Assembly: GCA_963575745.1 (NCBI GenBank)
Contig: CAUYUJ010000039.1
Span: forward strand, 1 to 64,000
Origin: Prorocentrum cordatum
Taxonomy: Eukaryota
Direction: 5' to 3'
Length of the DNA: 64,000 nt
This document shows positions 13,117 to 34,525 of this stretch, piece by piece (within the stretch, counting starts at the first letter, position 1; every line of letters begins with the position of its first letter). The notes below the pieces were generated by a model, which was not told where the DNA came from, searched no databases, and saw only the letters and a program-made list of their open reading frames with translations. A program made the translations under genes and the position numbers.

Positions 13117-13174
<58 letters not shown>

Positions 13175-13797: not shown

Positions 13798-14882
13798 GTC
13801 GTTGGGAAGGGGCCCATACCTCTCTGGGGCGCCACTTTGCGAACATATTACGGCGTCGGATGTCTTGTTTGTGCAGCGTGCTTGAAGTTCTCGTTGCATC
13901 TTATGAGCAGGAACGCGTTGTCTTTGCAGGGTTTATGTGCATCCACTTTTCTGTTTGCGCTGCCTTTTTCATATATCGTTCTCCCTATTGACTCCCGCGA
14001 CAAAGCGCCAATGATGACTGACATCTAGATGTATCGGCTAGTTTGCGCTGGCCACCTTTGACCCGATGCTGTCCTGGAGGGGGTGCGTTTCCCCCCCCCT
14101 GCTCGACCGTTGTCGTGGCGGTTGATTCTGTCGCGGCCGCCATTTGGGGCTGCTCCTTGCCGCTGCCTCCAGGCATCCGACGTCGTGATTGATTATGTTG
14201 ATACGTGGTCAGAGGTCTGGACCCCTTCATACGGCCGGTTTTTTGACACGAACCGATTTTCCAGCCCCAGGGCTCTCGAGGCGGACACGTGCCAACAAAC
14301 GTTCCGTCTTGCTTCGTTCGTGCCGCGAGGGCGTCGGGGTCCTTGCCGCTGACCCTCGCTTCCCTGGCCACAGGCAGCTGCCGATCCTTCGACGGAGCCT
14401 CGCAGGCGATTTCTCGGAGCCCCCCACGAAAAATCAGGCCGTTCAGAAAAGAGTGCGAGATCAGGGGGGAACAACTCTGGTGGCTAGTTGGGCTCACCCC
14501 TAGGTGTCGTCTTAGATTTGGGCAGGATTGCCTGCATGGAATTTCTCCCTCCCGCCACCCGATCACCTTTTTGAACAGAAGGCGTGCAAGTGAGTCCCGA
14601 CTTGCGTGAAGTCCAGGCTTCCTTTCGGGCCTCGCCACGCCCCCCACCGCCTCCCCCCCTGCAAGCTTGCAGGCCTGCTGGAGTCCAGAGACTATAGCTG
14701 TCTCCCGTCCAGGACGGCCGCTCCCCGTCGCCGATCCCCGGGCATGGTCCCAAACTCCTGGTCATTTCTGGAACCCAGCCAAAGTCTGAGATTGGGGTCG
14801 CCGTACCCCCCGTTGGATCATGGGCAACGGCAGGGGGGATGTACAACTCAACAGCTGCACGCCAAATAAAAAGTCGTGGCCC

Positions 14883-14904
14883 TCCGTAGCCATTTTGGCT
14901 CAAG
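14883..14904 (+). other. Genomic dinoflagellate spliced-leader copy (TCCGTAGCCATTTTGGCTCAAG)
   Basis: Exact match to DinoSL DCCGTAGCCATTTTGGCTCAAG, directly 5' of the UTR of gene copy 1. Confidence 0.97.
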
Positions 14905-14973
14905 ATACAAGCACCCCTACAAATTACACAAGCCCTTTGGAGTGAGCTGTTTTTTGTTCACGCCTCCCCAGAC

Positions 14974-16013
14974 ATGGGTGTGATGCCGTCCGCCGTGTTT
15001 TCTGTGTCTTTTCTGTTGTCCACGGGGGTTTGCTGCGCAACTGAGCTGAAGACCTACATGGCCCGGACGGACGGGTGGGTCATTGATTCGGCAAGCGCAC
15101 GCTCCTGCACTGCGATATGCAGCGAGGTCGGCAAGACGTGCACAGCTGCGAGCGAGACGATCATGACTAACGCCGCTGCGTCGGCAAGTGCCCTCAAGAC
15201 CGCCCTCGGCAGCCAGTTCTCCACATTCTGCCCAGGTGGTGTCCAGGACACGAATCCCAGTGACGACGTGCCCTTTCTGTTTGCCCCGGGCAACTTCTGC
15301 GAGTACGGCCGCGGGAGCTACAGATCGAGGTGCGAGACTGCAGGTGAATCTTGGCAGGTGCGGCGGATCTGCTACTGCCAGGCAACGCCGGCGCCTTCGC
15401 CAGCGCCGCGGCGCCTTCGCCAGCGCCGACGCCCGCACCATCGGCTTCGCCAACGCCAGTACCGACGCCCGCGACCCCCTCACCGACGCCTGCACCTACG
15501 CAGGCGCCGACGCCTGCCCCTACGCCAGCCCGTACGCCTGCTGCGATTGCTGCTGCAGTCGGGGATCCTCACCTGGTAAATATACACGGGGAGCGTTTTG
15601 ATCTCCTCAAAGATGGCAGGCACTTGCTGGTCGAGGTCCCACAGTTTGCAGCGGAGAGCGCGACGCTCCTGGCCGTCGCGGCCGTGGCACAGCGTTGTGG
15701 CGACGCATGCTCGGACGTTTACTTTGTATCCATTAATGTGACCGGCAAGTGGGCGGACGACGTGCGCGAGGGCGGCTTCCATTACACGGCCAAGCAGCCG
15801 CAGGCCCATCGAAAGGGAACGGGCTGGATGAGCTTCCACAGCATTAAATTGAAGACCGTATGGGGCCGTACTGGCGGAGGCATTCCCTACCTGAATATGT
15901 TTGTCAAGAACTTGGGCAAGTCGGGGTATCCAGTCGGTGGTTTGCTCGGCGGTGGGGACCATTCCTCCGTCACCAATCCCGATTTGCGCTGCAAGCGCTA
16001 CCTCGCATTTTAA
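14974..16013 (+). pseudogene. Retrogene copy 1 of secreted Cys-rich/PT-linker/GDPH protein, frameshifted near 15409
   Basis: Near-identical to 19994-21037. A small deletion in the Pro-Thr linker splits it into ORFs 14974-15579 and 15351-16013. May be a consensus error. Confidence 0.8.
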
Positions 16014-16396
16014 GCGGACTTAGGACTCAGGACTCAGGACAGAGAATTCGTGCGCGAACCAAGCATGTCCATCTGTCGTTCAAGTGCCGTGTGGGAGCAA
16101 TAATGCTGGGGTTTTTAGTTGCGTGGCACTGCAGCCCAAGGTAGCAGCGCATTTTCTCGCAGCAATGTCCAGCGAGCTGCAGCCCAAGGTAGCAGCTCAT
16201 GTACAGTGCTGGCCGCTGCATCCCGGCACCTTCTGCTGAGAACACAAGCCATTGTGGTTATTTCAGCGCAAGCACGCCATGAACGCTGTCTGCAGGCGTT
16301 TGGCCTCTGACACTCTCGGGCGTAAGCGGACTGCGTTCTTGAAAGGTGTGTGGGACTCATTTTGTCGCCTCGTCCTTGCGAGGTGTGAGAAAAAAA

Positions 16397-18454
16397 TTAG
16401 CCTGGCGAAGGACCCAACCATATGCAGTTGAGAGTACCGCAATTGTGAATATCTTCTTCGGTGGCGCTCCCTATGGGGCCACGAGCCGTATGAGGGGTGT
16501 GCCGAAATGCGTGGCAGTGTACACAACACGAACGAAGACGATAGGTCCGAATATGAAAGCTTGAGCGCGTGCGAGTCGGATCGCGAGCGAGTCTGATTAT
16601 GAATGAATCTGCGCGCGATTGATTCTATTCGCATGAATGCGTGCATGGATACGCCCAGTGTAAATGTATGTATACGACTGTGAACAGTTTGGGTCTGCGT
16701 GACTCTCGGTACTCGTGACTCTGAGCGTCGCCTCTGCAGGGGGCTTCCCTGGGAACCCCGACGGCAGCGCCCGCGCGCCGCGACGCCCATGTCGGCACGC
16801 CACACACCTGGTGTGCGGGACGCATGCGGACGGCAGCACTGGGGCCTTCGGTGGAGCTCCCTGTGGGGCCACGAAACGTGTGAGGGGTGTGCCGAAATGG
16901 GTGTGCGGGACGCATGCGGACGGCAGCCATGGGGCCTTCGGTGGAGCTCCCTATGGGGCCACGAAACGTGTGAGGGGTGTGCCGAAATGGGTGTGCGGGA
17001 CGCATGCGGACGGCAGCACTGGGGCCTTCGGTGGAGCTCCCTGTGGGGCCACGAAACGTGTGAGGGGTGTGCCGAAATGGGTGTGCGGGACGCATGCGGA
17101 CGGCAGCCATGGGGCCTTCGGTGGAGCTCCCTATGGGGCCACGAAACGTGTGAGGGGTGTGCCGAAATGGGTGTGCGGGACGCATGCGGACGGCAGCACT
17201 GGGGCCTTCGGTGGAGCTCCCTGTGGGGCCACGAAACGTGTGAGGGGTGTGCCGAAATGGGTGTGCGGGACGCATGCGGACGGCAGCCATGGGGCCTTCG
17301 GTGGAGCTCCCTATGGGGCCACGAAGCGTGTGATGGGTGTGCCGGAATGGGTGTGCGGGACGCATGCGGACGGCAGCACTGGGGCCTTCGGTGGAGCTCC
17401 CTATGGGGCCACGAAACGTGTGAGGGGTGTGCCGAAATGGGTGTGCGGGACGCATGCGGACGGCAGCCACTGGGGCCTTCGGTGGAGCTCCCTATGGGGC
17501 CACGAAACGTGTGAGGGGTGTGCCGAAATGGGTGTGCGGGACGCATGCGGACGGCAGCACTGGGGCCTTCGGTGGAGCTCCCTATGGGGCCACGAAACGT
17601 GTGAGGGGTGTGCCGAAATGGGTGTGCGGGGACGCATGCGGACGGCAGCCATGGGGCCTTCGGTGGAGCTCCCTATGGGGCCACGAAACGTGTGAGGGGT
17701 GTGCCGAAATGGGTGTGCGGGACGCATGCGGACGGCAGCACTGGGGCCTTCGGTGGAGCTCCCTGTGGGGCCTCGAAACGTGTGAGGGGTGTGCCGAAAT
17801 GGGTGTGCGGGACGCATGCGGACGGCAGCACTGGGGCCTTCGGTGGAGCTCCCTGTGGGGCCACGAAACGTGTGAGGGGTGTGCCGAAATGTGTGTGCGG
17901 GACGCATGCGGACGGCAGCCATGGGGCCTTCGGTGGAGCTCCCTGTGGGGCCACGAAACGTGTGAGGTGTGCCGAAATGGGTGCGCGGGACGCATGCGGG
18001 CGGCAGCCATGGGGCCTTCGGTGGAGCTCCCTATGGGGCCACGAACGTGTGAGGTGTTGTGCCGAAATGGTTGGTGGTGCGGGACGCATGCGGACGGCAG
18101 CACTGGGGCCTTCGGTGGAGCTCCCTGTGGGGCCACGAAACGTGTGAGGGGTGTGCCGAAATGGGTGTGCGGGACGCATGCGGACGGCAGCCATTGGGCC
18201 TTCGGTGGAGCTCCCTATGGGGCCACGAAACGTGTGAGGGGTGTGCCGAAATGGGTGTGCGGGACGCATGCGGACGGCAGCCATGGAGCCTTCGGTGGAG
18301 CTCCCTATGGGGCCACGAAACGTGTGAGGGGTGTGCCGAAATGGGTGTGGAGGAGGGAGGAGGGCGGAGGAGGAGAGGAGGAGGAGGAGAGGAGGTGGGA
18401 CGCGGGGCGCTGTCTCTTCAAAACGAGGACCCAACACCACAGGATGGTTGGGAA
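16397..18454 (+). mobile_element. 90-bp-satellite element, copy B (in the A-tract of retrogene 1)
   Basis: Same termini; 90-bp array ~16811-18350; absent at the equivalent site in units 3 and 4. Confidence 0.85.
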
Positions 18455-19902
18455 AAACAAGTCGTGGCCCTACGCGGACTTCTCGGATCTGCGCTGGGCC
18501 CCTGGCGGGGCCAGCGCAGACCCCAGGAATCCGCGCGGACCTCCGACGGCTTATGTTTCTGCCGTCGCAGAGCAGTCTCAGGAGGGGGGGCGAGGCAGCG
18601 ACCCCCCCCTCGCCCACGGATCGGCGATGGGGGCCACTGGCTGCCCCGCCGAGGAACATCCGGCCTCTCTCTCTCGGGGGCCCGTCGCCGATCTGTCGAC
18701 GATGCATCGCCGACCCCGGGTCGAGGTGTCCCCCCCCCTCGGCCAGATCGTCCCGAGCGACCGCCAGGGAGCCGAGTGATGGCCCGAAAGCCAGGGGGGA
18801 ACGGCAGGCAGGCGGGGGGTTGGGCTCGGGGGGGGGGGGACGCATCGACCCCCCGTCGCCCTTGATCGCCGTTCGGACGGATGTCTGGTCTGTGCAGCGT
18901 GCTTGAAGTTCGCGTTGCATCTTATGAGCGGGAACGCGTTGTCTTTGCAGGGTTTATGTGCATCCACTTTTCTGTTTGCGCTGCCTTTTTCGTGTATCGT
19001 TCTCCCTATTGACTCCCGCGACAAAGCGCCAATGATGACTGACATCTAGATGTATCGGCTAGTTTGCGCTGGCCACCTTTGACCCGATGCTGTCCTGGAG
19101 GGGGTGCGTTTCCCCCCCCCCCGCTCGACCGTTGTCGTGGCGGTTGATTCTGTCGCGGCCGCCATTTGGGGCTGCTCCTTGCCGCTGCCTCCAGGCATCC
19201 GACGTCAGTGGATTGATTATGATGATACGTGCGAGGAGGTCTGGAACCATCCACACGGCGGTTTTGACGCGAACCGATTCCCGCCCCAGGGCTTCACGAG
19301 GCGGGGAAACGTGCCAAACCAAACGTTCCGTCTTGCTTAGTTCGTGCCGCGAGGGCGTGGGGTTGCTTGCCGCTGACCCTCGCTTCCCGGGCAACAGGCA
19401 GCTGCCGACTTCGACGGAGCCTCGCAGGAGATTCTCTGGAGCCCCACGAAAACAGGCCCTTCAGAAAGAGGCGAGATCAGGGGGGAAAAACTCTGGGTGG
19501 CTAGTTGGGCTCAACCCTAGGTGTCGTCTTAGATTTTTTTTAGGCAGGATTGCCTGCATGGAAATTGTCTCCCCCGGCACTCGATCACCTTTGAAACAGA
19601 TTCGGCAAAGAAGTGAGTCCCGACTGCGTGAAGTCCAGCTTCCGTGGGCATCGCCACGCCCCAACACGAGAAGCACCCCTGCAAGCTTGCAGGCCTGCTG
19701 GAGTCCAGAGACTATAGCTGTCTCCCGTCCAGGACGGCCGCTCCCCGTCGCCGATCCCCGGGCATGGTCCCAAACTCCTGGTCATTTCTGGAACCCAGCC
19801 AAAGTCTGAGATTGGGGTCGCCGTACCCCCCGTTGGATCATGGGCAACGGCAGGGGGGATGTACAACTCAACAGCTGCACGCCAAATAAAAAGTCGTGGC
19901 CC

Positions 19903-19924
19903 TCCGTAGCCATTTTGGCTCAAG
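19903..19924 (+). other. Genomic DinoSL copy
   Basis: Exact 22-mer upstream of gene copy 2. Confidence 0.97.
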
Positions 19925-19993
19925 ATACAAGCATCCCTACAAATTACACAAGCCCTTTGGAGTGAGCTGTTTTTTGTTCACGCCTCCCCAGAC

Positions 19994-21037
19994 ATGGGTG
20001 TGATGCCGTCCGCCGTGTTTTCTGTGTCTTTTCTGTTGTCCACAGGGGGTTGCTGCGCAACTGAGCTGAAGACCTACATGGCCCGGACGGACGGGTGGGT
20101 CATTGATTCGGCAAACGCACGCTCCTGCACTGCGATATGCAGCGAGGTCGGCAAGACGTGCACAGCTGCGAGCGAGACGATCATGACTAACGCCGCTGCG
20201 TCGGCAAGTGCCCTCAAGACCGCCCTCGGCAGCCAGTTCTCCACATTCTGCCCAGGTGGTGTCCAGGACACGAATCCCAGTGACGACGTGCCCTTTCTGT
20301 TTGCCCCGGGCAACTTCTGCGAGTACGGCCGCGGGAGCTACAGATCGAGGTGCGAGACTGCAGGTGAAAATTGGAAGGTGCGGCGGATCTGCTACTGCCA
20401 GGCGACGCCGGCGCCTTCGCCAGCGCCGACGCCCGCACCATCGGCTTCGCCAACGCCCGCACCATCGGCTTCGCCAACGCCAGCACCGACGCCCGCGACC
20501 CCCTCACCGACGCCTGCACCTACGCAGGCGCCGACGCCTGCCCCTACGCCAGCCCGTACGCCTGCAGCGATTGCTGCTGCAGTCGGGGATCCTCACCTGG
20601 TAAATATACACGGGGAGCGTTTTGATCTCCTCAAAGATGGCAGGCACTTGCTGGTCGAGGTCCCACAGTTTGCAGCGGAGAGCGCGACGCTCCTGGCCGT
20701 CGCGGCCGTGGCACAGCGTTGTGGCGACGCATGCTCGGACGTTTACTTTGTATCCATTAATGTGACCGGTAAGTGGGCGGACGACGTGCGCGAGGGCGGC
20801 TTCCATTACACGGCCAAGCAGCCGCAGGCCCATCGAAAGGGAACGGGCTGGATGAGCTTCCACAGCATTAAATTGAAGACCGTATGGGGCCGTACTGGCG
20901 GAGGCATTCCCTACCTGAATATGTTTGTCAAGAACTTGGGCAAGTCGGGGTATCCAGTCGGTGGTTTGCTCGGCGGTGGGGACCATTCCTCCGTCACCAA
21001 TCCCGATTTGCGCTGCAAGCGCTACCTCGCATTTTAA
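19994..21037 (+). CDS. Retrogene copy 2: 347-aa secreted protein (signal peptide, 8-Cys domain, Pro/Thr/Ala linker, GDPH VWD-like C-terminal domain)
   Basis: Intact intronless ORF with hydrophobic N-terminus, SCxxxCxxxGxxC...RRICYC, (PAPSPAPT)-type repeats and AVGDPHLVNIHGERFDL. SL lies 70 nt upstream. Confidence 0.9.
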   Translation: MGVMPSAVFSVSFLLSTGGCCATELKTYMARTDGWVIDSANARSCTAICSEVGKTCTAASETIMTNAAASASALKTALGSQFSTFCPGGVQDTNPSDDVPFLFAPGNFCEYGRGSYRSRCETAGENWKVRRICYCQATPAPSPAPTPAPSASPTPAPSASPTPAPTPATPSPTPAPTQAPTPAPTPARTPAAIAAAVGDPHLVNIHGERFDLLKDGRHLLVEVPQFAAESATLLAVAAVAQRCGDACSDVYFVSINVTGKWADDVREGGFHYTAKQPQAHRKGTGWMSFHSIKLKTVWGRTGGGIPYLNMFVKNLGKSGYPVGGLLGGGDHSSVTNPDLRCKRYLAF

Positions 21038-21421
21038 GCGGACTCAGGACTCAGGACTCAGGACAGAAAATTAATGCGCGTACCAAGCATGTCCATCTTT
21101 TGTTCAAGTGCCGTGTGGGAGAAATAATGCTGGGGTTTTTAGTTGCGTGGCACTGCAGCCCAAGGTAGCAGCGCATTTTCACGCAGCAGTGTTCAGCGAG
21201 CTGCAGCCCAAGGTAGCAGCTCATGTACAGTGCTGGCCGCTGCATCCCCGGCACCTTCTGCTGAGAACACAAGCCATTGTGGTTCTTTCAGCGCAAGCAC
21301 GCCATGAACGCTGTCTGCAGGCGTTTGGCCTCTGACTCTCTCGGGCGTAAGCGGACTGCGTTCTTGAAAGGTGTGTGGGACTCATTTTGTCGCCTCGTCC
21401 TTGCGAGGCGTGAGAAAAAAA

Positions 21422-23679
21422 TTAGCCTGGCGAAGGACCCAACCATATGCAGTTGAGAGTACCGCAATTGTGAATATCTTCTTCGGTGGCGCTCCCTATG
21501 GGGCCACGAGCCGTATGAGGGGTGTGCCGAAATGCGTGGCAGTGTACACAACACGAACGAAGACGATAGGTCCGAATATGAAAGCTTGAGCGCGTGCGAG
21601 CCGGATCGCGAGCGAGTCTGATTATGAATGAATCTGCGCGCGATTGATTCTATTCGCATGAATGCGTGCATGGATACGCCCAGTGTAAATGTATGTATAC
21701 GACTGTGAACAGTTTGGGTCTGCATGACTCTCGGTACTCGTGACTCTGAACGTCGCCTCTGCAGGGGGCTTCCCTGGGAACCCCGACGGCAGCGCCCGCG
21801 CGCCGCGACGCCCATGTCGGCACGCCACACACCTGGTGTGCGGGACGCATGCGGACGGCAGCACTGGGGCCTTCGGTGGAGCTCCCTGTGGGGCCACGAA
21901 ACGTGGGAGGGGTGTGCCGAAATGGGTGTGCGGGACGCATGCGGACGGCAGCACTGGGGCCTTCGGTGGAGCTCCCTGTGGGGCCACGAAACGTGTGAGG
22001 GGTGTGCCGAAATGGGTGTGCGGGACGCATGCGGACGGCAGCACTGGGGCCTTCGGTGGAGCTCCCTGGGGGGCCACGAAACGGGTGAGGGGTGTGCCGA
22101 AATGGGTGTGCGGGACGCATGCGGACGGCAGCACTGGGGCCTTCGGTGGAGCTCCCTGTGGGGCCACGAAGCGTGTGAGGGGTGTGCCGAAATTGGTGTG
22201 CGGGGCGCATGCGGACGGCAGCGCTGGGGCCTTCGGTGGAGCTCCCTGTGGGGCCACGAAACGTGTGAGGGGTGTGCCGAAATGGGTGTGCGGGACGCAT
22301 GCGGACGGCAGCCCTGGGGCCTTCGGTGGAGCTCCCTATGGGGCCGCGAAACGTGTGAGGGGTGTGCCGAAATGGGTGTGCGGGACGCATGCGGACGGCA
22401 GCATTGGGGCCTTCGGTGGAGCTCCCTGTGGGGCCACGAAACGTGTGAGGGGTGTGCCGAAATGGGTGTGCGGGACGCATGGGGGGGGGGGGGACACGTA
22501 CGGCAGCACTGGGGCCTCGGTGGAGCTCCCTATGGGCCACCGAAACGTGTGAGGGGTGTGCCGAAAGGGGTGTGCGAGGGACGCATGCGGTCGGCAGCAC
22601 GGGGCCGTGGGTGGAGCTCCCTGTGGGTCCACGAAGACGTGTGGAGGGGTGTGACGAACATGGACTGCGAATGATCAGGGTGGTATGCGGACGGCAGCAA
22701 CTGGGGCCTTCGGTGGAGCTCCCTGTGGGGCACGGAAACGCTGGAGGGAGTGCCGAAATGGGTGGTGGGGAAGCATGCGAACCCTGCCACTGGGGCCTTC
22801 GGTGGAGCTCCCTATGGGGCCACGAAACGTGTGAGGGGTGTGCCGACATGGGTGTGCGGGACGCATGCGGACGGCAGCACTGGGGCCTTCGGTGGAGCTC
22901 CCTATGGGGCCACGAAACGTGTGAGGGGTGTGCCGAAATGGGTGCGCGGGACGCATGCGGACGGCAGCACTGGGGCCTTCGCTGGAGCTCCATGTGGGGC
23001 CACGAAACGTGTGAGGGGTGTGCCGAAATGGTTGTGCGGGACGCATGCGGGCGGCAGCCATGGGGCCTTCGGTGGAGCTCCCTGTGGGGCCACGAAAACG
23101 TTGCTGAGGCGTGTGGCCGAATGGGTGCGCGGGGAGCAATGCGGGACGCAGCACGGGGGGCCATTCGGTGGAGCTCCCTATGGGGCCACGAAACGTGTGA
23201 GGGGTGTGCCGAAATGGGTGTGCGGGACGCATGCGGACGGCAGCACTGGGGCCTTCGGTGGAGCTCCTGTGGGGCCACGAAACGTGTGAGGGGTGTGCCG
23301 AAATGGGTGTGCGGGACGCATGCGGACGGCAGCCATGGGGCCTTCGGTGGAGCTCCCTATGGGGCCACGAAACGTGTGAGGGGTGTGCCGAAATGGGTGT
23401 GCGAGACGCATGCGGACGGCAGCCATGGGGCCTTCGGTGGAGCTCCCTATGGGGCCACGAAACGTGTGAGGGGTGTGCCGAAATGGGTGTGCGGGACGCA
23501 TGCGGACGGCAGCACTGGGGCCTTCGGCGGAGCTCCCTATGGGGCTACGGAGCGCTGTACTGGGCGGGTGAAACGCAAGGAAGAGGGGGAGGAGGGAGGC
23601 GGAGGAGGAGGAAGGAGGAAGGAGACGCGGGGCACCGTCTCTTCAAAACGAGGACCCAACACCACAGGATGGTTGGGAA
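21422..23679 (+). mobile_element. 90-bp-satellite element, copy C (in the A-tract of retrogene 2)
   Basis: Same termini and position as copy B, so probably co-duplicated with the unit. Confidence 0.85.
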
Positions 23680-25143
23680 AAAAATCGTGGCCCTACGCGG
23701 ACTTCTCGGATCTGCGCTGGGCCCCTGGCGGGGCCAGCGCAGACCCCAGGAATCCGCGCGGACCTCCGACGGTTTATGTTTCTGCCGTCGCCGGCTCCTT
23801 TCGCAGAGTAGTCTCAGGGGGGGCGAGGCAGCGACCCCCCCCTCGCCCACGGATCGGCGATGGGGGCCATTGGCTGCCCCGCGCAAGGGACATCCGGCCT
23901 CTCCTCTCGGGGGCCCGTCGCCGATCTGTCGACGATGCATCGCCGATCCCGGGTCGAGGTGTCCCCCCCCCCCTCGGCCAGATCGCCCCGAGCGACCGCC
24001 AGGGAGCCGAGCGATGGCCCGAAGGCCAGGGGGGAACGGCAGGCAGGCGGGGGGTTGGGCTCAGGGGGGGGGGACGCATCGACCCCCCGTCGCCCTTGAT
24101 CGCCGTTCGGACGGATGTCTGGTCTGTGCAGCGTGCTTGAAGTTCGCGTTGCATCTTATGAGCGGGAACGCGCTGTCTTTGCAGGGTTTATGTGCATCCA
24201 CTTTTCTGTTTGCGCGCTGCCTTCTTCGTATATCGTTCTCCCTATTGACTCCCGCGACAAAGCGCCAATGACGACTGACATCTAGATGTATCGGCTAGTT
24301 TGCGCTGGCCACCTTTGACCCGATGCTGTCCTGGAGGGGGTGCGTTTCCCCCCCCCCCGCTCGACCGTTGTCGTGGCGGTTGATTCTGTCGCGGCCGCCA
24401 TTTGGGGCTGCTCCTTGCCGCTGCCTCCAGGCATCCGACGTCGTGATTGATTATGTTGATACGTGGTCAGAGGTCTGGACCCCTTCACACGGCCGGTTTT
24501 TTGACGCGAACCGATTTGCCCCGCCCCAGGGCTCTCGAGGCGGACACGTGCCAACAAACGTTCCGTCTTGCTTCGTTCGTGCCGCGAGGGCGTCGGGGTC
24601 CTTGCCGCTGACCCTCGCTTCCCTGGCCACAGGCAGCTGCCGATCCTTCGACGGAGCCTCGCAGGCGATTTCTCGGAGCCCCCCACGAAAAATCAGGCCG
24701 TTCAGAAAAGAGTGCGAGATCAGGGGGGAACAACTCTGGTGGCTAGTTGGGCTCACCCCTAGGTGTCGTCTTAGATTTGGGCAGGATTGCCTGCATGGAA
24801 TTTCTCCCTCCCGCCACCCGATCACCTTTTGAACAGAAGGCGTGCAAGTGACCAGCAGTTGGGGGTCACAGCCAGGCTTCTTCGGTGCATCGGCACGCCC
24901 TCCACCGCCCCCCCTCCGCCAACGCTTGCCAGGCCTGCTGGAGTCCCAGAGGACTATAGCGTATCCCGTCCGGACGGCGATTCCCCCGTCGCCGATCCCC
25001 GGGCATGGTCCCAAACTCCTGGTCATTTCTGGAACCCAGCCAAAGTCTGAGATTGGGGTCGCCGTACCCCCCGTTGGATCATGGGCAACGGCAGGGGGGA
25101 TGTACAACTCAACAGCTGCACGCCAAATAAAAAGTCGTGGCCC

Positions 25144-25165
25144 TCCGTAGCCATTTTGGCTCAAG
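25144..25165 (+). other. Genomic DinoSL copy
   Basis: Exact 22-mer upstream of gene copy 3. Confidence 0.97.
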
Positions 25166-25234
25166 ATACAAGCATCCCTACAAATTACACAAGCCCTTTG
25201 GAGTGAGCTGTTTTTTGTTCACGCCTCCCCAGAC

Positions 25235-26358
25235 ATGGGTGTGATGCCGTCCGCCGTGTTTTCTGTGTCTTTTCTGTTGTCCACAGGGGGTTGCTGCGCA
25301 ACTGAGCTGAAGACCTACATGGCCCGGACGGACGGGTGGGTCATTGATTCGGCAAACGCACGCTCCTGCACTGCGATATGCAGCGAGGTCGGCAAGACGT
25401 GCACAGCTGCGAGCGAGACGATCATGACTAACGCCGCTGCGTCGGCAAGTGCCCTCAAGACCGCCCTCGGCAGCCAGTTCTCCACATTCTGCCCAGGTGG
25501 TGTCCAGGACACGAATCCCAGTGACGACGTGCCCTTTCTGTTTGCCCCGGGCAACTTCTGCGAGTACGGCCGCGGGAGCTACAGATCGAGGTGCGAGACT
25601 GCAGGTGAAAATTGGAAGGTGCGGCGGATCTGCTACTGCCAGGCGACGCCGGCGCCTTCGCCAGCGCCGACGCCCGCACCATCGGCTTCGCCAACGCCCG
25701 CACCATCGGCTTCGCCAACGCCAGCACCGACGCCCGCGACCCCCTCACCGACGCCTGCACCTACGCAGGCGCCGACGCCTGCCCCTACGCCAGCCCGTAC
25801 GCCTGCAGCGATTGCTGCTGCAGTCGGGGATCCTCACCTGGTAAATATACACGGGGAGCGTTTTGATCTCCTCAAAGATGGCAGGCACTTGCTGGTCGAG
25901 GTCCCACAGTTTGCAGCGGAGAGCGCGACGCTCCTGGCCGTCGCGGCCGTGGCACAGCGTTGTGGCGACGCATGCTCGGACGTTTACTTTGTATCCATTA
26001 ATGTGACCGGTAAGTGGGCGGACGACGTGCGCGAGGGCGGCTTCCATTACACGGCCAAGCAGCCGCAGGCCCATCGAAAGGGAACGGGCTGGATGAGCTT
26101 CCACAGCATTAAATTGAAGACCGTATGGGGCAGTACTGGCGGAGGCATTCCCTTTTATCTTTCTTCTTTCTACAGTTATGTCTTTTCTCATCTTTTTTCT
26201 TTAATTTCCTTTTTTCTGTCTTTTTTATATGTTTACCTGAATAATGTTTGTCAAGACTTGGCAAGTCGGGGTATCCAGTCGGTGGTTTGCTCGGCGGTGG
26301 GGACCATTCCTCCGTCACCAATCCCGATTTGCGCTGCAAGCGCTACCTCGCATTTTAA
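25235..26358 (+). pseudogene. Retrogene copy 3, interrupted by ~80 nt T-rich insertion near 26152-26232
   Basis: Essentially identical to copy 2 up to GGGIP, then a T-rich insert and small indels; homologous TAA at 26356-26358. Possibly a read error. Confidence 0.75.
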
Positions 26359-28179
26359 GCGGACTTAGGACTCAGGACTCAGGACAGAGAATTCGTGCGC
26401 GAGCCAAGCATGTCCATCTGTCGTTCAAGTGCCGTGTGGGAGAAATAATGCTGGGGTTTTTAGTTGCGTGGCACTGCAGCCCAAGGTAGCAGCGCATTTT
26501 CACGCAGCAATGTCCAGCGAGCTGCAGCCCAAGGTAGCAGCTCATGTGCAGTGCTGGCCGCTGCATCCCCGGCACCTTCTGCTGAGAACACAAGCCATTG
26601 TGGCTCTTTCAGCGCAAGCACGCCGTGAACGCTGTCTGCAGGCGTTTGGCCTCTGACACTCTCGGGCGTAAGCGGACTGCGTGCTTGAAAGGTGTGTGGG
26701 ACTCATTTTGTCGCCTCGTCCTTGCGAGGTGTGAGAAGAAAAAAAGTCGTGGCCCTGCGCGGACTTCTCGGATCTGCGCTGGGCCCCTGGCGGGGCCAGC
26801 GCAGACCCCAGGAATCCGCGCGGACCTCCGACGGTTTATATGTTTCTGCCGTCGCAGAGCAGTCTCAGGAGGGGGGCGAGGCAGCGCCCACGGATCGGCG
26901 ATGGGGGCCACTGGCTGCCCCGCCAAGGAACATCCGGCCTCTCTCTCTCGGGGGCCCGTCGCCGATCTGTCGACGATGCATCGCCGACCCCGGGTCGAGG
27001 TGTCCCCCCCCCCTCGGCCAGATCGCCCCGAGCGACCGCCAGGGAGCCGAGCGATGGCCCGAAAGCCAAGGGGGGAACGGCAGGCAGGCGGGGGGTTGGG
27101 CTCGGGGGGGGGGGGGACGCATCGACCCCCCGTCGCCCTTTGATCGCCGTTCGGACGGATGTCTGGTCTGTGCAGCGTGCTTGAAGTTCGCGTTGCATCT
27201 TATGAGCGGGAACGCGCTGTCTTTGCAGGGTTTACGTGCATCCACTTTTCTGTTTGCGCGCTGCCTTTTTCGTATATCGTTCTCCCTATTGACTCCCGCG
27301 ACAAAGCGCCAATGACGACTGACATCTAGATGTATCGGCTAGTTTGCGCTGGCCACCTTTGACCCGATGCTGTCCTGGAGGGGGTGCGTTTCCCCCCCCC
27401 TGCTCGACCGTTGTCGTGGCGGTTGATTCTGTCGCGGCCGCCATTTGGGGCTGCTCCTTGCCGCTGCCTCCAGGCATCCGACGTCGTGATTGATTATGTT
27501 GATACGTGGTCAGAGGTCTGGACCCCTTCATACGGCCGGTTTTTTGACACGAACCGATTTTCCAGCCCCAGGGCTCTCGAGGCGGACACGTGCCAACAAA
27601 CGTTCCGTCTTGCTTCGTTCGTGCCGCGAGGGCGTCGGGGTCCTTGCCGCTGACCCTCGCTTCCCTGGCCACAGGCAGCTGCCGATCCTTCGACGGAGCC
27701 TCGCAGGCGATTTCTCGGAGCCCCCCACGAAAAATCAGGCCGTTCAGAAAAGAGTGCGAGATCAGGGGGGAACAACTCTGGTGGCTAGTTGGGCTCACCC
27801 CTTAGATTTGGGCAGGATTGCCTGCATGGAATTTCTCCCTCCCGCCACCCGATCACCTTTTGAACAGAAGGCGTGCAAGTGAGTCCCGACTTGCGTGAAG
27901 TCCAGGCTTCCTTTCGGGCATCGCCACGCCCCCCACCGCCCCCCCCCTGCAAGCTTGCAGGCCTGCTGGGAGTCCAGGAGGACTATAGCTGTCTCCAGTC
28001 CAGGACGGCCGCTCCCCGTTCGCGATCCCCGGGCATGGTCCAAACTCTGGTCCATTTCTGTGAAACCAGCCAAGTCTGAGATTGGGCGTCGCCGTACCCC
28101 CGTTTGGATCATGGGCACGGCAGGGCCCAGGGGGGATGTACAACTAAACAGCTGCACACCAAATAAAAAGTCGTGGCCC

Positions 28180-28201
28180 TCCGTAGCCATTTTGGCTCAA
28201 G
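28180..28201 (+). other. Genomic DinoSL copy
   Basis: Exact 22-mer upstream of gene copy 4. Confidence 0.97.
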
Positions 28202-28270
28202 ATACAAGCATCCCTACAAATTACCCAAGCCCTTTGGAGTGAGCTGTTTTTTGTTCACGCCTCCCCAGAC

Positions 28271-29314
28271 ATGGGTGTGATGCCGTCCGCCGTGTTTTCT
28301 GTGTCTTTTCTGTTGTCCACAGGGGGTTGCTGCGCAACTGAGCTGAAGACCTACATGGCCCGGACGGACGGGTGGGTCATTGATTCGGCAAACGCACGCT
28401 CCTGCACTGCGATATGCAGCGAGGTCGGCAAGACGTGCACAGCTGCGAGCGAGACGATCATGACTGACGCCGCTGCGTCGGCAAGTGCCCTCAAGACCGC
28501 CCTCGGCAGCCAGTTCTCCACATTCTGCCCAGGTGGTGTCCAGGACACGAATCCCAGTGACGACGTGCCCTTTCTGTTTGCCCCGGGCAACTTCTGCGAG
28601 TACGGCCGCGGGAGCTACAGATCGAGGTGCGAGATTGCAGGTGAAAATTGGAAGGTGCGGCGGATCTGCTACTGCCAGGCAACGCCGGCGCCTTCGCCAG
28701 CGCCGACGCCAGCGCCTTCGCCAGCGCCGACGCCCGCACCATCGGCTTCGCCAACGCCAGCACCGACGCCCGCGACCCCCTCACCGACGCCTGCACCTAC
28801 GCAGGCGCCGACGCCTGCCCCTACGCCAGCCCGTACGCCTGCAGCGATTGCTGCTGCAGTCGGGGATCCTCACCTGGTAAATATACACGGGGAGCGTTTT
28901 GATCTCCTCAAAGATGGCAGGCACTTGCTGGTCGAGGTCCCACAGTTTGCAGCGGAGAGCGCGACGCTCCTGGCCGTCGCGGCCGTGGCACAGCGTTGTG
29001 GCGACGCATGCTCGGACGTTTACTTTGTATCCATTAATGTGACCGGCAAGTGGGCGGACGACGTGCGCGAGGGCGGCTTCCATTACACGGCCAAGCAGCC
29101 GCAGGCCCATCGAAAGGGAACGGGCTGGATGAGCTTCCACAGCATTAAATTGAAGACCGTATGGGGCCGTACTGGCGGAGGCATTCCCTACCTGAATATG
29201 TTTGTCAAGAACTTGGGCAAGTCGGGGTATCCAGTCGGTGGTTTGCTCGGCGGTGGGGACCATTCCTCCGTCACCAATCCCGATTTGCGCTGCAAGCGCT
29301 ACCTCGCATTTTAA
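28271..29314 (+). CDS. Retrogene copy 4: intact 347-aa secreted GDPH protein
   Basis: Intact ORF differing from copy 2 by a few substitutions. Confidence 0.9.
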   Translation: MGVMPSAVFSVSFLLSTGGCCATELKTYMARTDGWVIDSANARSCTAICSEVGKTCTAASETIMTDAAASASALKTALGSQFSTFCPGGVQDTNPSDDVPFLFAPGNFCEYGRGSYRSRCEIAGENWKVRRICYCQATPAPSPAPTPAPSPAPTPAPSASPTPAPTPATPSPTPAPTQAPTPAPTPARTPAAIAAAVGDPHLVNIHGERFDLLKDGRHLLVEVPQFAAESATLLAVAAVAQRCGDACSDVYFVSINVTGKWADDVREGGFHYTAKQPQAHRKGTGWMSFHSIKLKTVWGRTGGGIPYLNMFVKNLGKSGYPVGGLLGGGDHSSVTNPDLRCKRYLAF

Positions 29315-30762
29315 GCGGACTTAGGACTCAGGACTCAGGACAGAGAATTCGCGCGCGAGCCAAGCATGTCCATCTGTCGTTCAAGTGCCGTGTGGGAGAA
29401 ATAATGCTGGGGTTTTTAGTTGCGTGGCACTGCAGCCCAAGGTAGCAGCGCATTTTCACGCAGCAATGTCCAGCGAGCTGCAGCCCAAGGTAGCAGCTCA
29501 TGCACAGTGCTGGCCGCTGCATCCCCGGCACCTTCTGCTGAGAACACAAGCCATTGTGGCTCTTTCAGCGCAAGCACGCCATGAACGCTGTCTGCAGGCG
29601 TTTGGCCTCTGACACTCTCGGGCGTAAGCGGACTGCGTGCTTGAAAGGTGTGTGGGACTCATTTTGTCGCCTCGTCCTTGCGAGGTGTGAGAAGAAAAAA
29701 AGTCGTGGCCCTGCGCGGACTTCTCGGATCTGCGCTGGGCCCCTGGCGGGGCCAGCGCAGACCCCAGGAATCCGCGCGGACCTCCGACGGTTTATATGTT
29801 TCTGCCGTCGCAGAGCAGTCTCAGGAGGGGGGCGAGGCAGCGCCCACGGATCGGCGATGGGGGCCACTGGCTGCCCCGCCGAGGAACATCCGGCCTCTCT
29901 CTCTCGGGGGCCCGTCGCCGATCTGTCGACGATGCATCGCCGACCCCGGGTCGAGGTGTCCCCCCCCCCTCGGCCAGATCGCCCCGAGCGACCGCCAGGG
30001 AGCCGAGCGATGGCCCGAAAGCCAAGGGGGGAACGGCAGGCAGGCGGGGGGTTGGGCTCGGGGGGGGGGGGGACGCATCGACCCCCCGTCGCCCTTTGAT
30101 CGCCGTTCGGACGGATGTCTGGTCTGTGCAGCGTGCTTGAAGTTCGCGTTGCATCTTATGAGCGGGAACGCGCTGTCTTTGCAGGGTTTACGTGCATCCA
30201 CTTTTCTGTTTGCGCGCTGCCTTTTTCGTACATCGTTCTCCCTACTGACTCCCGCGACAAAGCGCCAATGACGACTGACATCTAGATGTATCGGCTAGTT
30301 TGCGCTGGCCACCTTTGACCCGATGCTGTCCTGGAGGGGGTGCGCTTCCCCCCCCCCCCCGCTCGACCGTTGTCGTGGCGGTTGATTCTGTCGCGGCCGC
30401 CATTTGGGGCTGCTCCTTGCCGCTGCCTCCAGGCATCCGACGTCGTGATTGATTATGTTGATACGTGGTCAGAGGTCTGGACCCCTTCACACGGCCGGTT
30501 TTTTGACGCGAACCGATTTGCCCCGCCCCAGGGCTCTCGAGGCGGACACGTGCCAACAAACGTTCCGTCTTGCTTCGTTCGTGCCGCGAGGGCGTCGGGG
30601 TCCTTGCCGCTGACCCTCGCTTCCCTGGCCACAGGCAGCTGCCGATCCTTCGACGGAGCCTCGCAGGCGATTCCTCGGAGCCCCCCACGAAAAATCAGGC
30701 CGTTCAGAAAAGAGTGCGAGATCAGGGGGGAACAACTCTGGTGGCTAGTTGGGCTCACCCCT

Positions 30763-31284
30763 AGTTGCCCCTATTTTCCCGGCATGTCTGGGCTCTGAAA
30801 CAGGGGTCAAATAACAAACTCAACCCCACGAGGGGACATGTTAAGACCCTTCCCCAGCTCCGCTGACCAGTAAGGGTGTTATGACTATATGTCTAGACAT
30901 AGATTTATATAGATACAGATGTACTACTCAAACTTACCCTTCCCCACGCCACGTTGGCTGGGGGTGTGCTCGACACAAAAATCGAATGGTTGAAATAGGA
31001 ACGGGTTTCCAGAAAGCTGGCGGCGGCCGCCGAGGGGTGGGTTCAAGAAATACCACAGGTGGGGTAAAGGCGAACGGCTTTCCCAGAGGTGGCGGCGGTC
31101 CCCAGGGTGGGTCCTTTCGTAAATCAGCACAGACTCCCCGATCCATGTTCGTCAGATGGACGCGATCGGGGAGACAACGACGACGACGACAACGAACTGA
31201 AGACGTCCCATGGGGGGCAATGCAAAGCCGGGCGACGTGGGGTAGTAGTAATCGGAAAAATGAATAAACATAGTCGAAGCAGGA

Positions 31285-31324
<40 letters not shown>

Positions 31325-31365
31325 CAGTAGCAGTAGTAGTAGTAGCAGTAGCAGTAGTAGTAGAC

Positions 31366-31421
<56 letters not shown>

Positions 31422-31428
31422 CGTAGTC

Positions 31429-31482
<54 letters not shown>

Positions 31483-31598
31483 CAGCAGCAGTAGTAGTTG
31501 TAGTAGTAGTAGTAGTAGTACTAGTAGTATAGTAATAGTAGTAGTAGTCGTAGTAGTAGTAGTCGTATCGTAGTAGCAGTAGTAATCGTAGTAGTAGT

Positions 31599-31652
<54 letters not shown>

Positions 31653-31673
31653 AGGTAGTTAGTAGTCGTAGTC

Positions 31674-31714
<41 letters not shown>

Positions 31715-31795
31715 TAGTAGTAGCAGTAGTAATAGTTAGTAGTTAGTAATAGTAGTATAATAGTAGTAATAGTAGTAGTAGTAGTCGTAGTAGTC

Positions 31796-31830
<35 letters not shown>

Positions 31831-31842
31831 CTAGTAGTTAGT

Positions 31843-31875
<33 letters not shown>

Positions 31876-32454
31876 AGTAGTAGTAGTAGTAGTAGTAGTT
31901 AGTAGTAGTAGTCGTGTAGTAGTCGTCGTAGTAGTAGTCGTGATAGTAGTCGCAGTAGTAGTAGTAGTAGTAGCAGTAGTAGTAGTAGTAGTAGCAGTGG
32001 TAGTAGTAGTGGTAGTAGTAGTATTACTACTACTACTACTAATAGTAGACGTGTACTAGAAGTAGAAACTGTAGCAGTAGTGGTCGTAGTAATAGTAGTA
32101 GTAGTAGTAGTGGTAGTAGGAGTAGTACTGAAGTTAGCAGTCGCAGTCGCCGTAGAACTGCTAGCAGTACTAGTAGGACAACTAATCGTGATAAAGCAGC
32201 AGCAGCAATAGTGATGGTCGTAGTAATCGTAGCAGTCGTAAGAGCAACAGTAGTAGCAGTAGCAGCTGCAGCAGCAGTAGTAATACGAACCATACGTCAG
32301 TAGTAGTAGTAGTAGTAGTAGCAGCAGTCGTAGTAGTAGTAGTAACAGTGATGGAAAAGCAGAAGAAGGAGCAGTAGTAGCACTCGTAGTAGTAGTAGTA
32401 GTAGCAGTAGTAGTCGTAGTACTAGTACTAGTAGTAGTAGTAGTAGTAGTAGTC

Positions 32455-32489
<35 letters not shown>

Positions 32490-32526
32490 CGTAGTAGTAG
32501 TAGTAGTAGTAGTAGCAGTAGTAGTC

Positions 32527-32566
<40 letters not shown>

Positions 32567-32971
32567 CAGTAGTAGTAGTAGTAGTAGTAATAGTTAGTAG
32601 TAGTAGTAGTAGTAGTAGTAGTAGCAGTAGTAGTAGTAGTAGTAGTCGTAGTCGTAGTAGTGGTAGTAGTACTGGTAGTAGTGGTAGCAGCAGTAGCAGT
32701 AGTAACAGTAGTAATAGTAGTAGCGGTCGTCGTAGAACTAGTAATGGTAGCAGTGCTAGTAATAGTAGTAGTCGTAGTAGTTGTAGTGGTGACATTCGTA
32801 GTCGTAGCCGTCGTCGTAGTAGTAGTAGTAGTCGTAGAATTAGAAATAGTAGTAGTAGTAGTAGTAGTACTAGTCATAATAGTAGTAGTAGTAGTAGTCG
32901 TAGTGGTAGTAGTAGTAGTAATAATAGTAGTAGTAATAGTAGTAGTAGTAGTAGTGGTAGTAGTAGTAGTC

Positions 32972-33037
<66 letters not shown>

Positions 33038-33544
33038 GAGTAGGAGTAGTAGTAGTAGTAGTAGTCGTAGTAGTAGTGGTAGTAGTAGTCGTGGCAGCAG
33101 TACTGCTAACCATCGTAGCAGTAATCGTAGTAGTAGTCATAGTAGTAGTAATAGTTGTAGTAGTAATAGTAGTGCGAACACTCGCAGTAGCTGTAATTGA
33201 AATAGTAGTAGTAGTAGTTGTTGTAGTAGTAGCAGTAGTAGTAGTCGTAGTAGTTGCAATCGTAGTAGTAGAAATATTCATGGCAATAGTGGTAGCTTTC
33301 GTGGTAGTGATAATAATAGTCGTAGTAGTACTAGCAGTACAGTAGTAGTAGCAGTCGTATTATTATTAGTAGTAATAGCAGTGGAAGTAGTAGTAGTAGC
33401 TGTAGTAGCTGTAGTAGTAGGAGTAGTAGTAGTAGTAGTAGTAGTAGCCGCCGTCGTAGTAGCGGTAGTAGTGGTGGTGGTAGGCGTAGTCGTTAGTAGT
33501 AGTAGTAGTAGCAGTAGTAGTAGTAGTAGTAGTAGTAGGTGTAG

Positions 33545-33580
<36 letters not shown>

Positions 33581-33612
33581 ATAGTAGTAGTAGTAGTAAT
33601 GGTGGTGGTAGC

Positions 33613-33653
<41 letters not shown>

Positions 33654-33986
33654 TAGTGGTAGTAGTGGTAATAGTAGTCGGAGCACTAATAGCAGTCGTC
33701 GTGGTAGGAGTTGTAGTAGTTGTAGTAGTAGTAGTAGTAGTCGTCGGTATCCTCGTCATAGTCGTGGAATCAGTCGTAGTTTTAGAACTCGTTGTAGCAG
33801 AAGAGGTAGGATTAAACATATTAGTAACAGTAGTATTTGAAGCCGTGGTAGTATGAGTAGTAGTAATAGTAGTGGTAGTAGTAGTAGTAGTAGTAGTCTT
33901 AGGAGTAGTAGTAACAGCAGTGGTGCCAACAGTAACAATAATAGTAGCAGCAGCAGTTCTCGTCGTTGTAGTAGTCGTAGCCGTCT

Positions 33987-34043
<57 letters not shown>

Positions 34044-34055
34044 AGTAGCGTAGTG

Positions 34056-34091
<36 letters not shown>

Positions 34092-34342
34092 ATAAGAGTA
34101 GTAGTATTATAGTAGTAATCGTATAGTGTTGGTAGTAGTAGTAGTAGTAGTAGTAGTAGTCGTAGTAGTAGTAGTAGTAGTAGTGTAGTTAGTAGTAGTA
34201 TAGTAGTATAGTAAGTATAGTGTAGTAGTAGTAGTAATATATAGTGTAGTGTAGTAGTAGTAGTCGTAGTCGTAGTCGTAGTCGTAATCGTAGTTAGTCG
34301 TAGTAGTGTAGTGTAGTGGTAGTGGTAGTGTAGTTAGTAGTC

Positions 34343-34382
<40 letters not shown>

Positions 34383-34383
34383 T

Positions 34384-34458
<75 letters not shown>

Positions 34459-34525
34459 TAGTAGTAAGAGTAGGAGGAGTAGTTGTTGTAGTAGGTGGTA
34501 GTAGTAGTAGGTGTTGTAGTAGGTG
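30763..34525 (+). repeat. Right inverted arm: ~0.5 kb unique segment plus degenerate (AGT)n tract
   Basis: Starts AGTTGCCCCTATTTTCCCGG, the reverse complement of 13778-13797. Outer end approximate. Confidence 0.88.

What the first reader, a model, noticed from the sequence alone, without database searches (positions are those of the whole stretch)
25129..26756. Complete processed retrogene: TSD - full spliced leader - intronless CDS - A-tract - TSD
Seen: AAAAAGTCGTGGCCCT directly precedes the perfect 22-nt SL (25129-25144; 28165-28180) and recurs directly after the 3' UTR A-tract (26741-26756; 29697-29712). The duplicated target is the left end of a GC-hairpin MITE-like repeat. A possible older relict (CAAGCCCTTTGGAGTGAG) lies in the 5' UTR. 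Known: SL relicts mark mRNA recycling in dinoflagellates, and a 16-bp TSD starting at an A-run is typical of target-primed reverse transcription. Inference: a recent full-length mRNA integration by a LINE-type enzyme, followed by tandem amplification with flanks. This gives direct mechanistic evidence for how tandem gene arrays start.
Basis: partly seen in the sequence, partly recalled or inferred. Interest (0 to 1): 0.85.

Follow-up and report, generated by a model that had tools for sequence, protein, structure and literature searches.

The report
Leader-capped retrogene amplified into tandem array
A processed messenger RNA of a dinoflagellate, still carrying its spliced leader, appears to have been copied back into the genome once, between two copies of a 16-letter target, and then duplicated as DNA into four tandem copies; this is a clear example of a known process, and its footprint points to LINE-type rather than LTR-type machinery.

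Summary
A perfect DinoSL, an intronless gene and a short A-tract lie between two copies of AAAAAGTCGTGGCCCT. There are four tandem units, not two, and all share one insertion site. The 16-mer occurs nowhere else in the window. It is part of a hairpin repeat downstream and stands alone before the SL, as a target-site duplication would. Copies 1-2 carry a later Helentron-like insertion in the A-tract. Only 5 nt of tail lie outside the duplication. The poly(A) site, empty site and parent were not shown, and the older relict is borderline (p about 0.05). Best reading (0.72): one LINE-type target-primed insertion, then DNA-level amplification. The protein matches Prorocentrum cordatum entries and is a domain mosaic. 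A review calls the enzyme unknown and favours copia; my searches found no paper describing target duplications on dinoflagellate retrogenes. This scan already noted a similar 14-3-3 retrocopy and SL-headed LINEs on other pieces of this genome. One locus gives the order of events, not a general origin of arrays.

The parts
25129..25144 (+). Unit 3 upstream copy of the 16-bp duplication (last T shared with the SL)
25144..25165 (+). Unit 3 perfect DinoSL; followed by AT, not a GT/GC donor
25235..26358 (+). Unit 3 intronless CDS up to the native stop; reading disturbed after 26152
26153..26233 (+). 81-nt T-rich insert found only in unit 3, next to small indels; probably long-read noise, no intron ends
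   Evidence: contigs X2 record 15 and X7 record 28 cross the site without it
26359..26740 (+). Unit 3 presumed 3' UTR ending GTGAG, then the 5-nt tail AAGAA
26741..26756 (+). Unit 3 downstream copy of the duplication; left arm of a GC hairpin repeat
26741..28164 (+). Spacer X (about 1.42 kb) between units; starts with the hairpin, which ends near 26830
28165..29712 (+). Unit 4, the cleanest copy: duplication 28165-28180, SL 28180-28201, 347-aa CDS 28271-29314, tail 29692-29696, duplication 29697-29712
14868..18471 (+). Unit 1: duplication, SL 14883-14904, CDS from 14974 frameshifted near 15408, A7, element E, duplication with 1 mismatch
19888..23694 (+). Unit 2: duplication, SL 19903-19924, intact CDS 19994-21037, A7, element E, duplication with 1 mismatch
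16397..18452 (-). Element E in the A-tract of unit 1: non-coding, CCCAACCAT subterminal inverted repeats, 90-bp tandem repeats; anatomy of a non-autonomous Helentron
   Evidence: features from PMC4067079 passages
21422..23677 (-). Element E at the same site in unit 2 (3 substitutions in 414 unique bases against unit 1)
13857..14867 (+). Left flank of the array; equals spacer X from position 416 onward
29713..30762 (+). Right flank of the array; equals spacer X up to position 1062 and stops at element T
9877..13797 (.). Left copy of repeat T: (TAC)n plus about 0.5 kb unique sequence; inverted partner of the right copy
30763..34522 (.). Right copy of repeat T, in inverted orientation

Best explanation
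A mature, trans-spliced mRNA for a 347-aa Cys-rich/Pro-Ala-Thr-linker protein was copied into the genome once by target-primed reverse transcription (TPRT). An endonuclease of a non-LTR retrotransposon nicked the bottom strand at the T-run opposite AAAT|AAAAAG in the left arm of a hairpin repeat. The freed T-rich end primed on the poly(A) tail and copying ran to the cap end of the SL. A second nick 15-16 bp away gave the duplication, with one shared T at the 5' junction. Later the insert plus about 1.4 kb of flank was duplicated as DNA into at least four head-to-tail units. A Helentron-like element entered the A-tract of one unit and was duplicated with it. SHOWN: the anatomy, the identical junctions in 4 units, the position of E, and colinearity with public contigs. 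INFERRED: the enzyme class, the priming on poly(A), the order E-after-retrocopy, and the way the array grew (unequal crossing-over through flanking direct repeats, or an array whose ends were trimmed).
For: The exact SL is the first thing inside the duplication in 4 of 4 units. The 16-mer is confined to the 8 unit junctions; chance recurrence within 1.6 kb is 26 of 13,336. Downstream, the 16-mer aligns as part of the left arm of a hairpin family with 3 other copies in the window, each having one diverged arm at that place. Upstream, it stands alone before the SL. The base pair after the SL is AT, whereas SL RNA genes continue with GU or GC (PMC6616646 passage), and Rfam finds nothing in 13000-31500. 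Contigs from 4 of 4 laid runs cover the N-terminal part without gaps and with 0-2 differences per best contig (records 1, 10, 11, 17, 25, 26); two of these runs are guessed to be RNA and two have no recorded type. Units differ by 19-32 substitutions in about 1,510 bases but share both junctions. E fits the described habit of Helentrons of entering T-rich sites without target change. A non-LTR reverse transcriptase ORF exists in the window (42253-46098, RVT_1 E 6.5e-12). That L1-type retrocopies have 7-20 bp duplications starting at an A-run is established knowledge, recalled and not from a call.
Against: The net tail is only 5 nt and contains a G. The A's beside E may come partly from E itself, so they are not proof of a longer tail. 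AAAAG, present at this junction, is also a reported genomic polyadenylation motif of dinoflagellates (PMC3229502 passage), so the tract need not be a copied tail. The test that the left flank continues the hairpin family beyond the 16-mer was not significant: 131-168 of 1500 random flanks and 219-428 of 1000 shuffles scored as high. The rejoined site does not fold better than the present 3' junction (-37.5 against -40.6). No parent gene was identified. Parts of the array look like uncorrected long-read sequence. A review favours Ty1/copia as the agent in dinoflagellates (PMC6050394).
Confidence: 0.72

Rival explanations
1. The gene is a retrocopy, but it entered by repair of a staggered double-strand break, or by short-homology pairing, with no LINE endonuclease. 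The A-tract is then mostly genomic, and the duplication comes from filling in the break.
For: The tail is very short. One T is shared at the 5' junction. The site lies in a stable hairpin that could be fragile. AAAAG is a genomic poly(A)-site motif.
Against: The insert is full length to the first SL base. The duplication is clean, 15-16 bp, and starts exactly at an A-run, with no filler or deletion at either junction in 4 units.
Confidence: 0.13
2. Circular-permutation reading: spacer X, not the gene, is the inserted or repeated unit, and the 16-mer is a terminal repeat or target of X. One version is an LTR-like element whose 647-bp shared piece (X416-1062) flanks a captured cDNA.
For: In a tandem array either part can look like the insert. 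The first left flank and the last right flank overlap by 647 bp of X. That piece has TG and CA near its ends.
Against: The 16-mer belongs to the hairpin at the start of X and abuts the SL exactly. The shared piece extends 4-5 bases left of the TG and 7 bases right of the CA, has no short duplication outside it, and stops at repeat T. No other copy of that piece lies in the window. At most such repeats explain the amplification, not the SL junction.
Confidence: 0.07
3. The single retrocopy is real, but some of the four units are assembly artefacts: dispersed or noisy reads stitched in tandem.
For: There are noisy stretches near 19200-19700 and 26153-26260, and spacer divergence of up to 8.6%. 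Near-identical proteins are listed on contigs of two different lengths.
Against: The differences are structured. E is present in units 1-2 and absent in 3-4, and a 12-bp indel and the base after the duplication split the spacers the same way.
Confidence: 0.08

Closest known systems
DinoSL-tagged retrogenes ('recycled' cDNAs) of dinoflagellates (Song et al. 2017, PMC5585692, passages; Song et al. 2018, PMC6050394, parts 1-2 of 3; Haro et al. 2025, PMC12014239, passages; Slamovits and Keeling 2008 only as cited there)
   Same: A genomic SL copy upstream of an intronless CDS that is colinear with probable RNA contigs.
   Different: Here the SL is complete and both ends of the insertion are readable, with a 15-16 bp duplication. 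'Target site duplication' occurs 0 times in those three papers. They leave the enzyme open, and one favours Ty1/copia.
LINE-1-made processed retrocopies of mammals (recalled; named as the model in PMC5585692 and PMC12014239 passages)
   Same: Full-length cDNA, a duplication of similar length starting at an A-run, and an A-tract at the 3' end.
   Different: The 5' end is marked by a trans-spliced leader, the tail is only 5 nt net, and the insert was afterwards amplified in tandem and appears to be transcribed.
Tandem arrays of single-exon genes with conserved spacers in dinoflagellates (Polarella, PMC7245778 passages; review PMC11453091 passages)
   Same: Unidirectional, intronless copies about 98% identical, with conserved spacers.
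   Different: Each unit still carries the scar of one founding retro-insertion. The review lists retroposition among several possible causes and says the mechanism needs study.
DINE-1 / HINE non-autonomous Helentrons (PMC4067079 passages), for element E only
   Same: Subterminal inverted repeats, an inverted repeat nested at one end, central tandem repeats, and insertion in a T/A-run.
   Different: The repeat is 9 bp rather than 12-15 bp. One other copy (38101-39198) is flanked by a 32-bp duplication. No autonomous partner was sought.

Membership tests
DinoSL-tagged retrogene | Genomic SL or relict upstream of a CDS | tested here: met
   Exact 22-mer 91 nt before the ATG in 4 of 4 units
DinoSL-tagged retrogene | No introns relative to the transcript | tested here: met
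   Uninterrupted 347-aa ORF in units 2 and 4; contigs colinear without gaps over 28205-28759 and 28804-29498
DinoSL-tagged retrogene | A parent gene without the SL exists | not testable with these tools
   No genome held. Near-identical proteins are listed on two contig lengths but their DNA could not be read
DinoSL-tagged retrogene | Expressed (retrogene rather than dead retrocopy) | tested here: inconclusive
   Contigs with 0-2 differences in 4 of 4 runs, one identical to unit 4 over 281 nt. Run type is guessed, and a parent could be the source
LINE-made (TPRT) processed retrocopy | Short direct repeat bracketing the insert exactly | tested here: met
   16 of 16 bases in units 3 and 4, 15 of 16 in units 1 and 2
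LINE-made (TPRT) processed retrocopy | Poly(A) tail at the mRNA's own cleavage site | tested here: inconclusive
   5 nt net tail; the output did not show the 3' end
LINE-made (TPRT) processed retrocopy | Duplication begins at a T|A-run nick site (L1-type consensus, recalled) | tested here: met
   AAAT|AAAAAG; only one T directly before the run, so weak on its own
LINE-made (TPRT) processed retrocopy | Empty site with one copy of the target | tested here: inconclusive
   None in the window; 0 hits in 2 metagenome scans and 1 viral scan; homology test beyond the 16-mer not significant
LTR (Ty1/copia)-mediated retrocopy | cDNA embedded between LTR pieces, with a 4-6 bp outer duplication (recalled) | tested here: not met
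   The SL abuts the 16-mer directly; the 647-bp piece shared by the flanks lacks clean TG..CA ends and an outer duplication
SL RNA gene | SL exon followed by a GU/GC donor and a short intron | tested here: not met
   AT follows the SL, then a UTR and a long ORF; no Rfam match
Non-autonomous Helentron (element E) | Subterminal inverted repeats and central tandem repeats | tested here: met
   CCCAACCAT/RTGGTTGGG at both ends of 4 of 4 copies; 90-bp repeats
Non-autonomous Helentron (element E) | Inserts in a T-run without target duplication | tested here: inconclusive
   True for 3 of 4 copies (two of them one event); the fourth has a 32-bp flanking duplication with 2 mismatches
Non-autonomous Helentron (element E) | Shares ends with a Rep/helicase element | not tested
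   No search made

The most novel reading that the evidence does not exclude
Dinoflagellate tandem arrays of intronless genes are seeded by single LINE-type insertions into repeats, and the new copy works at once. The target's AAAAG supplies a poly(A) site, and re-trans-splicing at a downstream AG (28207-28208, suggested by one contig with 22 unaligned letters before CAAG at 28205) removes the whole old leader, so such retrogenes are invisible to surveys for tandem leaders. In the boldest form, the founding cDNA was itself a fusion made by template switching in the Pro-Ala-Thr linker between two mRNAs: residues 160-347 are 97% identical to a protein with an unrelated N-terminus, while the N-terminal domain is about 80% identical to a different gene.
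Probability: 0.15. Interest if true: 0.72.

Novelty: new member of a known kind. Interest (0 to 1): 0.42.

Why it matters
About a fifth to a quarter of dinoflagellate genes carry leader scars, yet the reviews read here say the enzyme behind this recycling is unknown (PMC6050394) and that the origin of tandem arrays needs study (PMC11453091). A retrocopy with both ends intact carries the enzyme's footprint. A 15-16 bp duplication at an A-run argues for a non-LTR element and against the favoured copia idea. It also makes the question testable: tabulate duplication lengths and target consensus at all genomic SL copies and compare them with each retroelement family. The shared scar in four units dates retroposition before amplification for this array.

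Tried and rejected
Whole-genome search: no genome is held, so the empty site and the parent could not be sought directly. Scans for the hairpin found nothing: left end in metagenome contigs, 0; core in metagenome contigs, 0; core in viral contigs, 0. The run search listed 24 runs, none holding more than 0.33 of the words and none a clear genomic DNA holder. I laid 4 of the 24. The output left out 138 loose ends and 539 pieces, and none of those shown marked the poly(A) site. No contig covered the genomic SL or the bases 28187-28204 in place. This fits re-splicing downstream but is only absence of cover, and contigs drop rare forms. The test for extended hairpin homology and the folding comparison were not significant. 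The older SL relict was rejected as unproven. An SL RNA gene was rejected. I recall that some dinoflagellate SL RNA introns begin with a 7-mer resembling the bases after this SL; the two papers that could settle it are not held, so this stays unchecked. The 81-nt insert was rejected as an intron: it has no donor or acceptor ends and occurs in 1 of 4 copies. A survey of 134 SL sites in viral contigs showed no excess of target duplications (13 of 134 with a repeat of 13 nt or more, against 41 of 589 controls); these contigs are not dinoflagellate nuclear DNA as far as their label and composition show, so the survey does not test generality. The protein has no Pfam family at E 0.01. No supplementary files were opened; those of PMC5585692 and PMC10666404 could hold junction alignments that bear on novelty.
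Full report
Observation. The window holds four exact copies of the dinoflagellate spliced leader, at 14883, 19903, 25144 and 28180, against none in 100 shuffles. Each is directly preceded by AAAAAGTCGTGGCCCT, whose last T doubles as the leader's first base. The same 16-mer follows each unit: exact at 26741 and 29697, with one mismatch at 18456 and 23679. These 8 are all matches within two mismatches in 64 kb. In non-array DNA of the window, a 16-mer recurs within a 1.6-kb downstream stretch in 26 of 13,336 trials.

Corrections. Units 2 and 4 encode an intact 347-aa protein. Unit 1 has a 4-nt frameshift. Unit 3, the one named, has an 81-nt insert with 54 T at 26153-26233 and three single-base indels just after it. 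That looks like long-read noise, and contigs cross the site without the insert. The tail outside the duplication is only AAGAA. The suggested older relict is at chance level ungapped (8 of 15) and borderline gapped (210 of 4000 random windows, 200 of 4000 shuffles).

Organism and protein. The best protein hits are labelled Prorocentrum cordatum, at 97-98% identity over part of the length. There is no Pfam family. The protein is a mosaic. Residues 160-347 are 183 of 189 identical to P0004, which has an unrelated N-terminus. The N-terminal domain matches P0007 at 107 of 133 residues by my count of the alignment, while their C-terminal halves are much less alike. Whether the fusion predates the retroposition is unknown.

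Which part is the insert? In a tandem array the gene and the spacer are formally interchangeable. The downstream 16-mer continues into a strong hairpin. It aligns with the left arm of a palindromic repeat family that has three more, diverged copies near 0.8, 39.7 and 56.9 kb, each with one arm at that place. The upstream 16-mer has no hairpin behind it; the leader starts there. So the 16-mer belongs to the target and was duplicated around the gene. I tried to strengthen this by asking whether the flank left of the upstream copy continues the family consensus. It looks similar by eye, but the test failed: 131-168 of 1500 random flanks and 219-428 of 1000 shuffles scored as well. The rejoined site also folds no better than the present junction. 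No empty site was found.

Not an SL RNA gene. The leader is followed by AT, a 69-nt stretch and a long ORF. SL RNA genes continue with GU or GC (PMC6616646, passages), and Rfam gave no match.

RNA evidence. Of 24 runs listed I laid four; two are guessed to be RNA and two have no recorded type. All four have gap-free contigs over the N-terminal part with 0-2 differences, and one is identical to unit 4 over 281 nt. The 3' half is shared with paralogs. One contig joins the genome at CAAG (28205) after 22 letters that do not fit. The letters were not displayed; a new leader spliced at the AG 28207-28208 would look like this (inference). The poly(A) site was not visible in the part of the output shown.

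Later events. Units 1 and 2 carry element E (16397-18452; 21422-23677) between A7 and a second A-run. It has CCCAACCAT subterminal inverted repeats and 90-bp tandem repeats, and two more copies lie at 6825-8593 and 38101-39198. This matches the anatomy given for DINE-1/HINE elements, which enter T-rich sites without target change and bring a variable number of T's (PMC4067079, passages). The A's beside E therefore cannot be counted as tail. One other E copy has a 32-bp flanking duplication, which that description does not predict. The units differ by 19-32 substitutions in about 1,510 bases, noise included, but share both junctions: one insertion, then DNA-level copying. The outer flanks overlap by 647 bp of the spacer, and the array is enclosed by two inverted copies of a repeat of about 3.8 kb. 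So either direct repeats flanked the site beforehand, allowing unequal crossing-over, or the array's ends were cut. The sequence cannot decide between these.

Mechanism. Target-primed reverse transcription by a non-LTR enzyme fits best (0.72): a full-length cDNA, a 15-16 bp duplication starting at T|AAAAA, and no LTR pieces. The L1 footprint used for comparison is recalled knowledge. A non-LTR reverse transcriptase ORF lies at 42253-46098, but nothing ties it to this event. Against: the tail is short, AAAAG is also a reported genomic poly(A)-site motif (PMC3229502, passage), and neither the empty site nor the parent was found. The rivals are capture at a staggered break (0.13), partial assembly artefact (0.08) and the spacer as the mobile part (0.07).

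Literature. Leader-tagged retrogenes are well known (PMC5585692 passages; PMC6050394 parts 1-2 of 3; PMC12014239 passages). PMC6050394 says the type of element is unknown and favours Ty1/copia; PMC5585692 says direct evidence is lacking. A review lists retroposition among several possible causes of arrays (PMC11453091, passages). PMC7245778, PMC10666404 and PMC2606063 were seen as passages only. Searches for dinoflagellate retrogenes with target-site duplications gave 0 papers with all four terms. None of the 12 papers listed contains the phrase, and 1 of 5 has it once (an Amoebophrya paper, seen as a listing only). One search gave 0. Subscription papers, including Slamovits and Keeling 2008, and all supplements were not seen.

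Earlier notes of this scan report a 14-3-3 retrocopy with a 16-bp duplication, several SL-headed LINEs with duplications, and LINEs targeting a Helitron-type hairpin on other pieces of this genome. I did not check their sequences, and they are not counted as support.

Verdict. This is a real and fairly clean new member of a known kind. It helps make an open question testable, but a specialist would expect it, and two key checks remain open. Interest 0.42.

Noticed in passing
Viral-contig loci L001-L119 (e.g. L011-L013, L051-L057, L073-L075): An exact DinoSL 21-mer occurs at 134 distinct sites in 119 loci of the viral collection; 67 of the 80 loci listed are labelled giant-virus MAGs. 130 of 134 sites lie in loci of 15-37% GC, 127 have A before the 21-mer, and most follow a shared AT-rich stretch. 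110 of 120 sites have an ORF of 80 aa or more starting within 300 nt (median 50), against 239 of 670 random places, with no excess of target duplications. Of 44 of 92 downstream ORFs scanned, hits were DUF4116 (10), CCCH fingers (2), an ABC transporter, Fez1 and one RdRP; no giant-virus hallmark gene was among them. This may be giant viruses that hard-code the host leader behind their promoters. Viral identity is unconfirmed, and two paper searches (listings only) showed no such report. Possibly more surprising than the finding itself.
   Followed up: partly
window 9877-13797 and 30763-34522: Two inverted copies of a repeat of about 3.8 kb (complex TAC microsatellite plus 0.5 kb unique DNA, inner ends at the same base) enclose the whole gene array. 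Identity is 84-99% in most 250-column blocks of the inner 3 kb, with two blocks at 73-76%. It could be two insertions or one composite element.
   Followed up: partly
window 38101-39198 (-): A copy of the Helentron-like element E is flanked by a 32-bp direct duplication (2 mismatches), unexpected for a rolling-circle element.
   Followed up: partly
window 42253-46098 (+): A 1,281-codon open frame with a reverse transcriptase domain starts right after a long (TAG)n tract. By recalled motifs it has a C-terminal zinc knuckle and restriction-like nuclease, as in CRE-type elements. Another (AGT)n tract begins at 50358.
   Followed up: partly
window 28271-29314; proteins P0004, P0006, P0007, P0027: A large family shares a C-terminal domain starting GDPH with no Pfam match, joined by a Pro-Ala-Thr linker to interchangeable N-terminal domains (FG-GAP, laminin-G-like, Cys-rich).
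   Followed up: partly
window about 760-880, 39627-39776, 56874-56925, 26741-26830: A dispersed, imperfect palindromic repeat with a GCGCGG core. Contigs from all four laid runs cover it with many different continuations, so it is a common repeat.
   Followed up: partly
window 34533-34799 and 35011-35276: A 267-bp inverted repeat, 98% identical, directly outside the right copy of repeat T.
   Followed up: no
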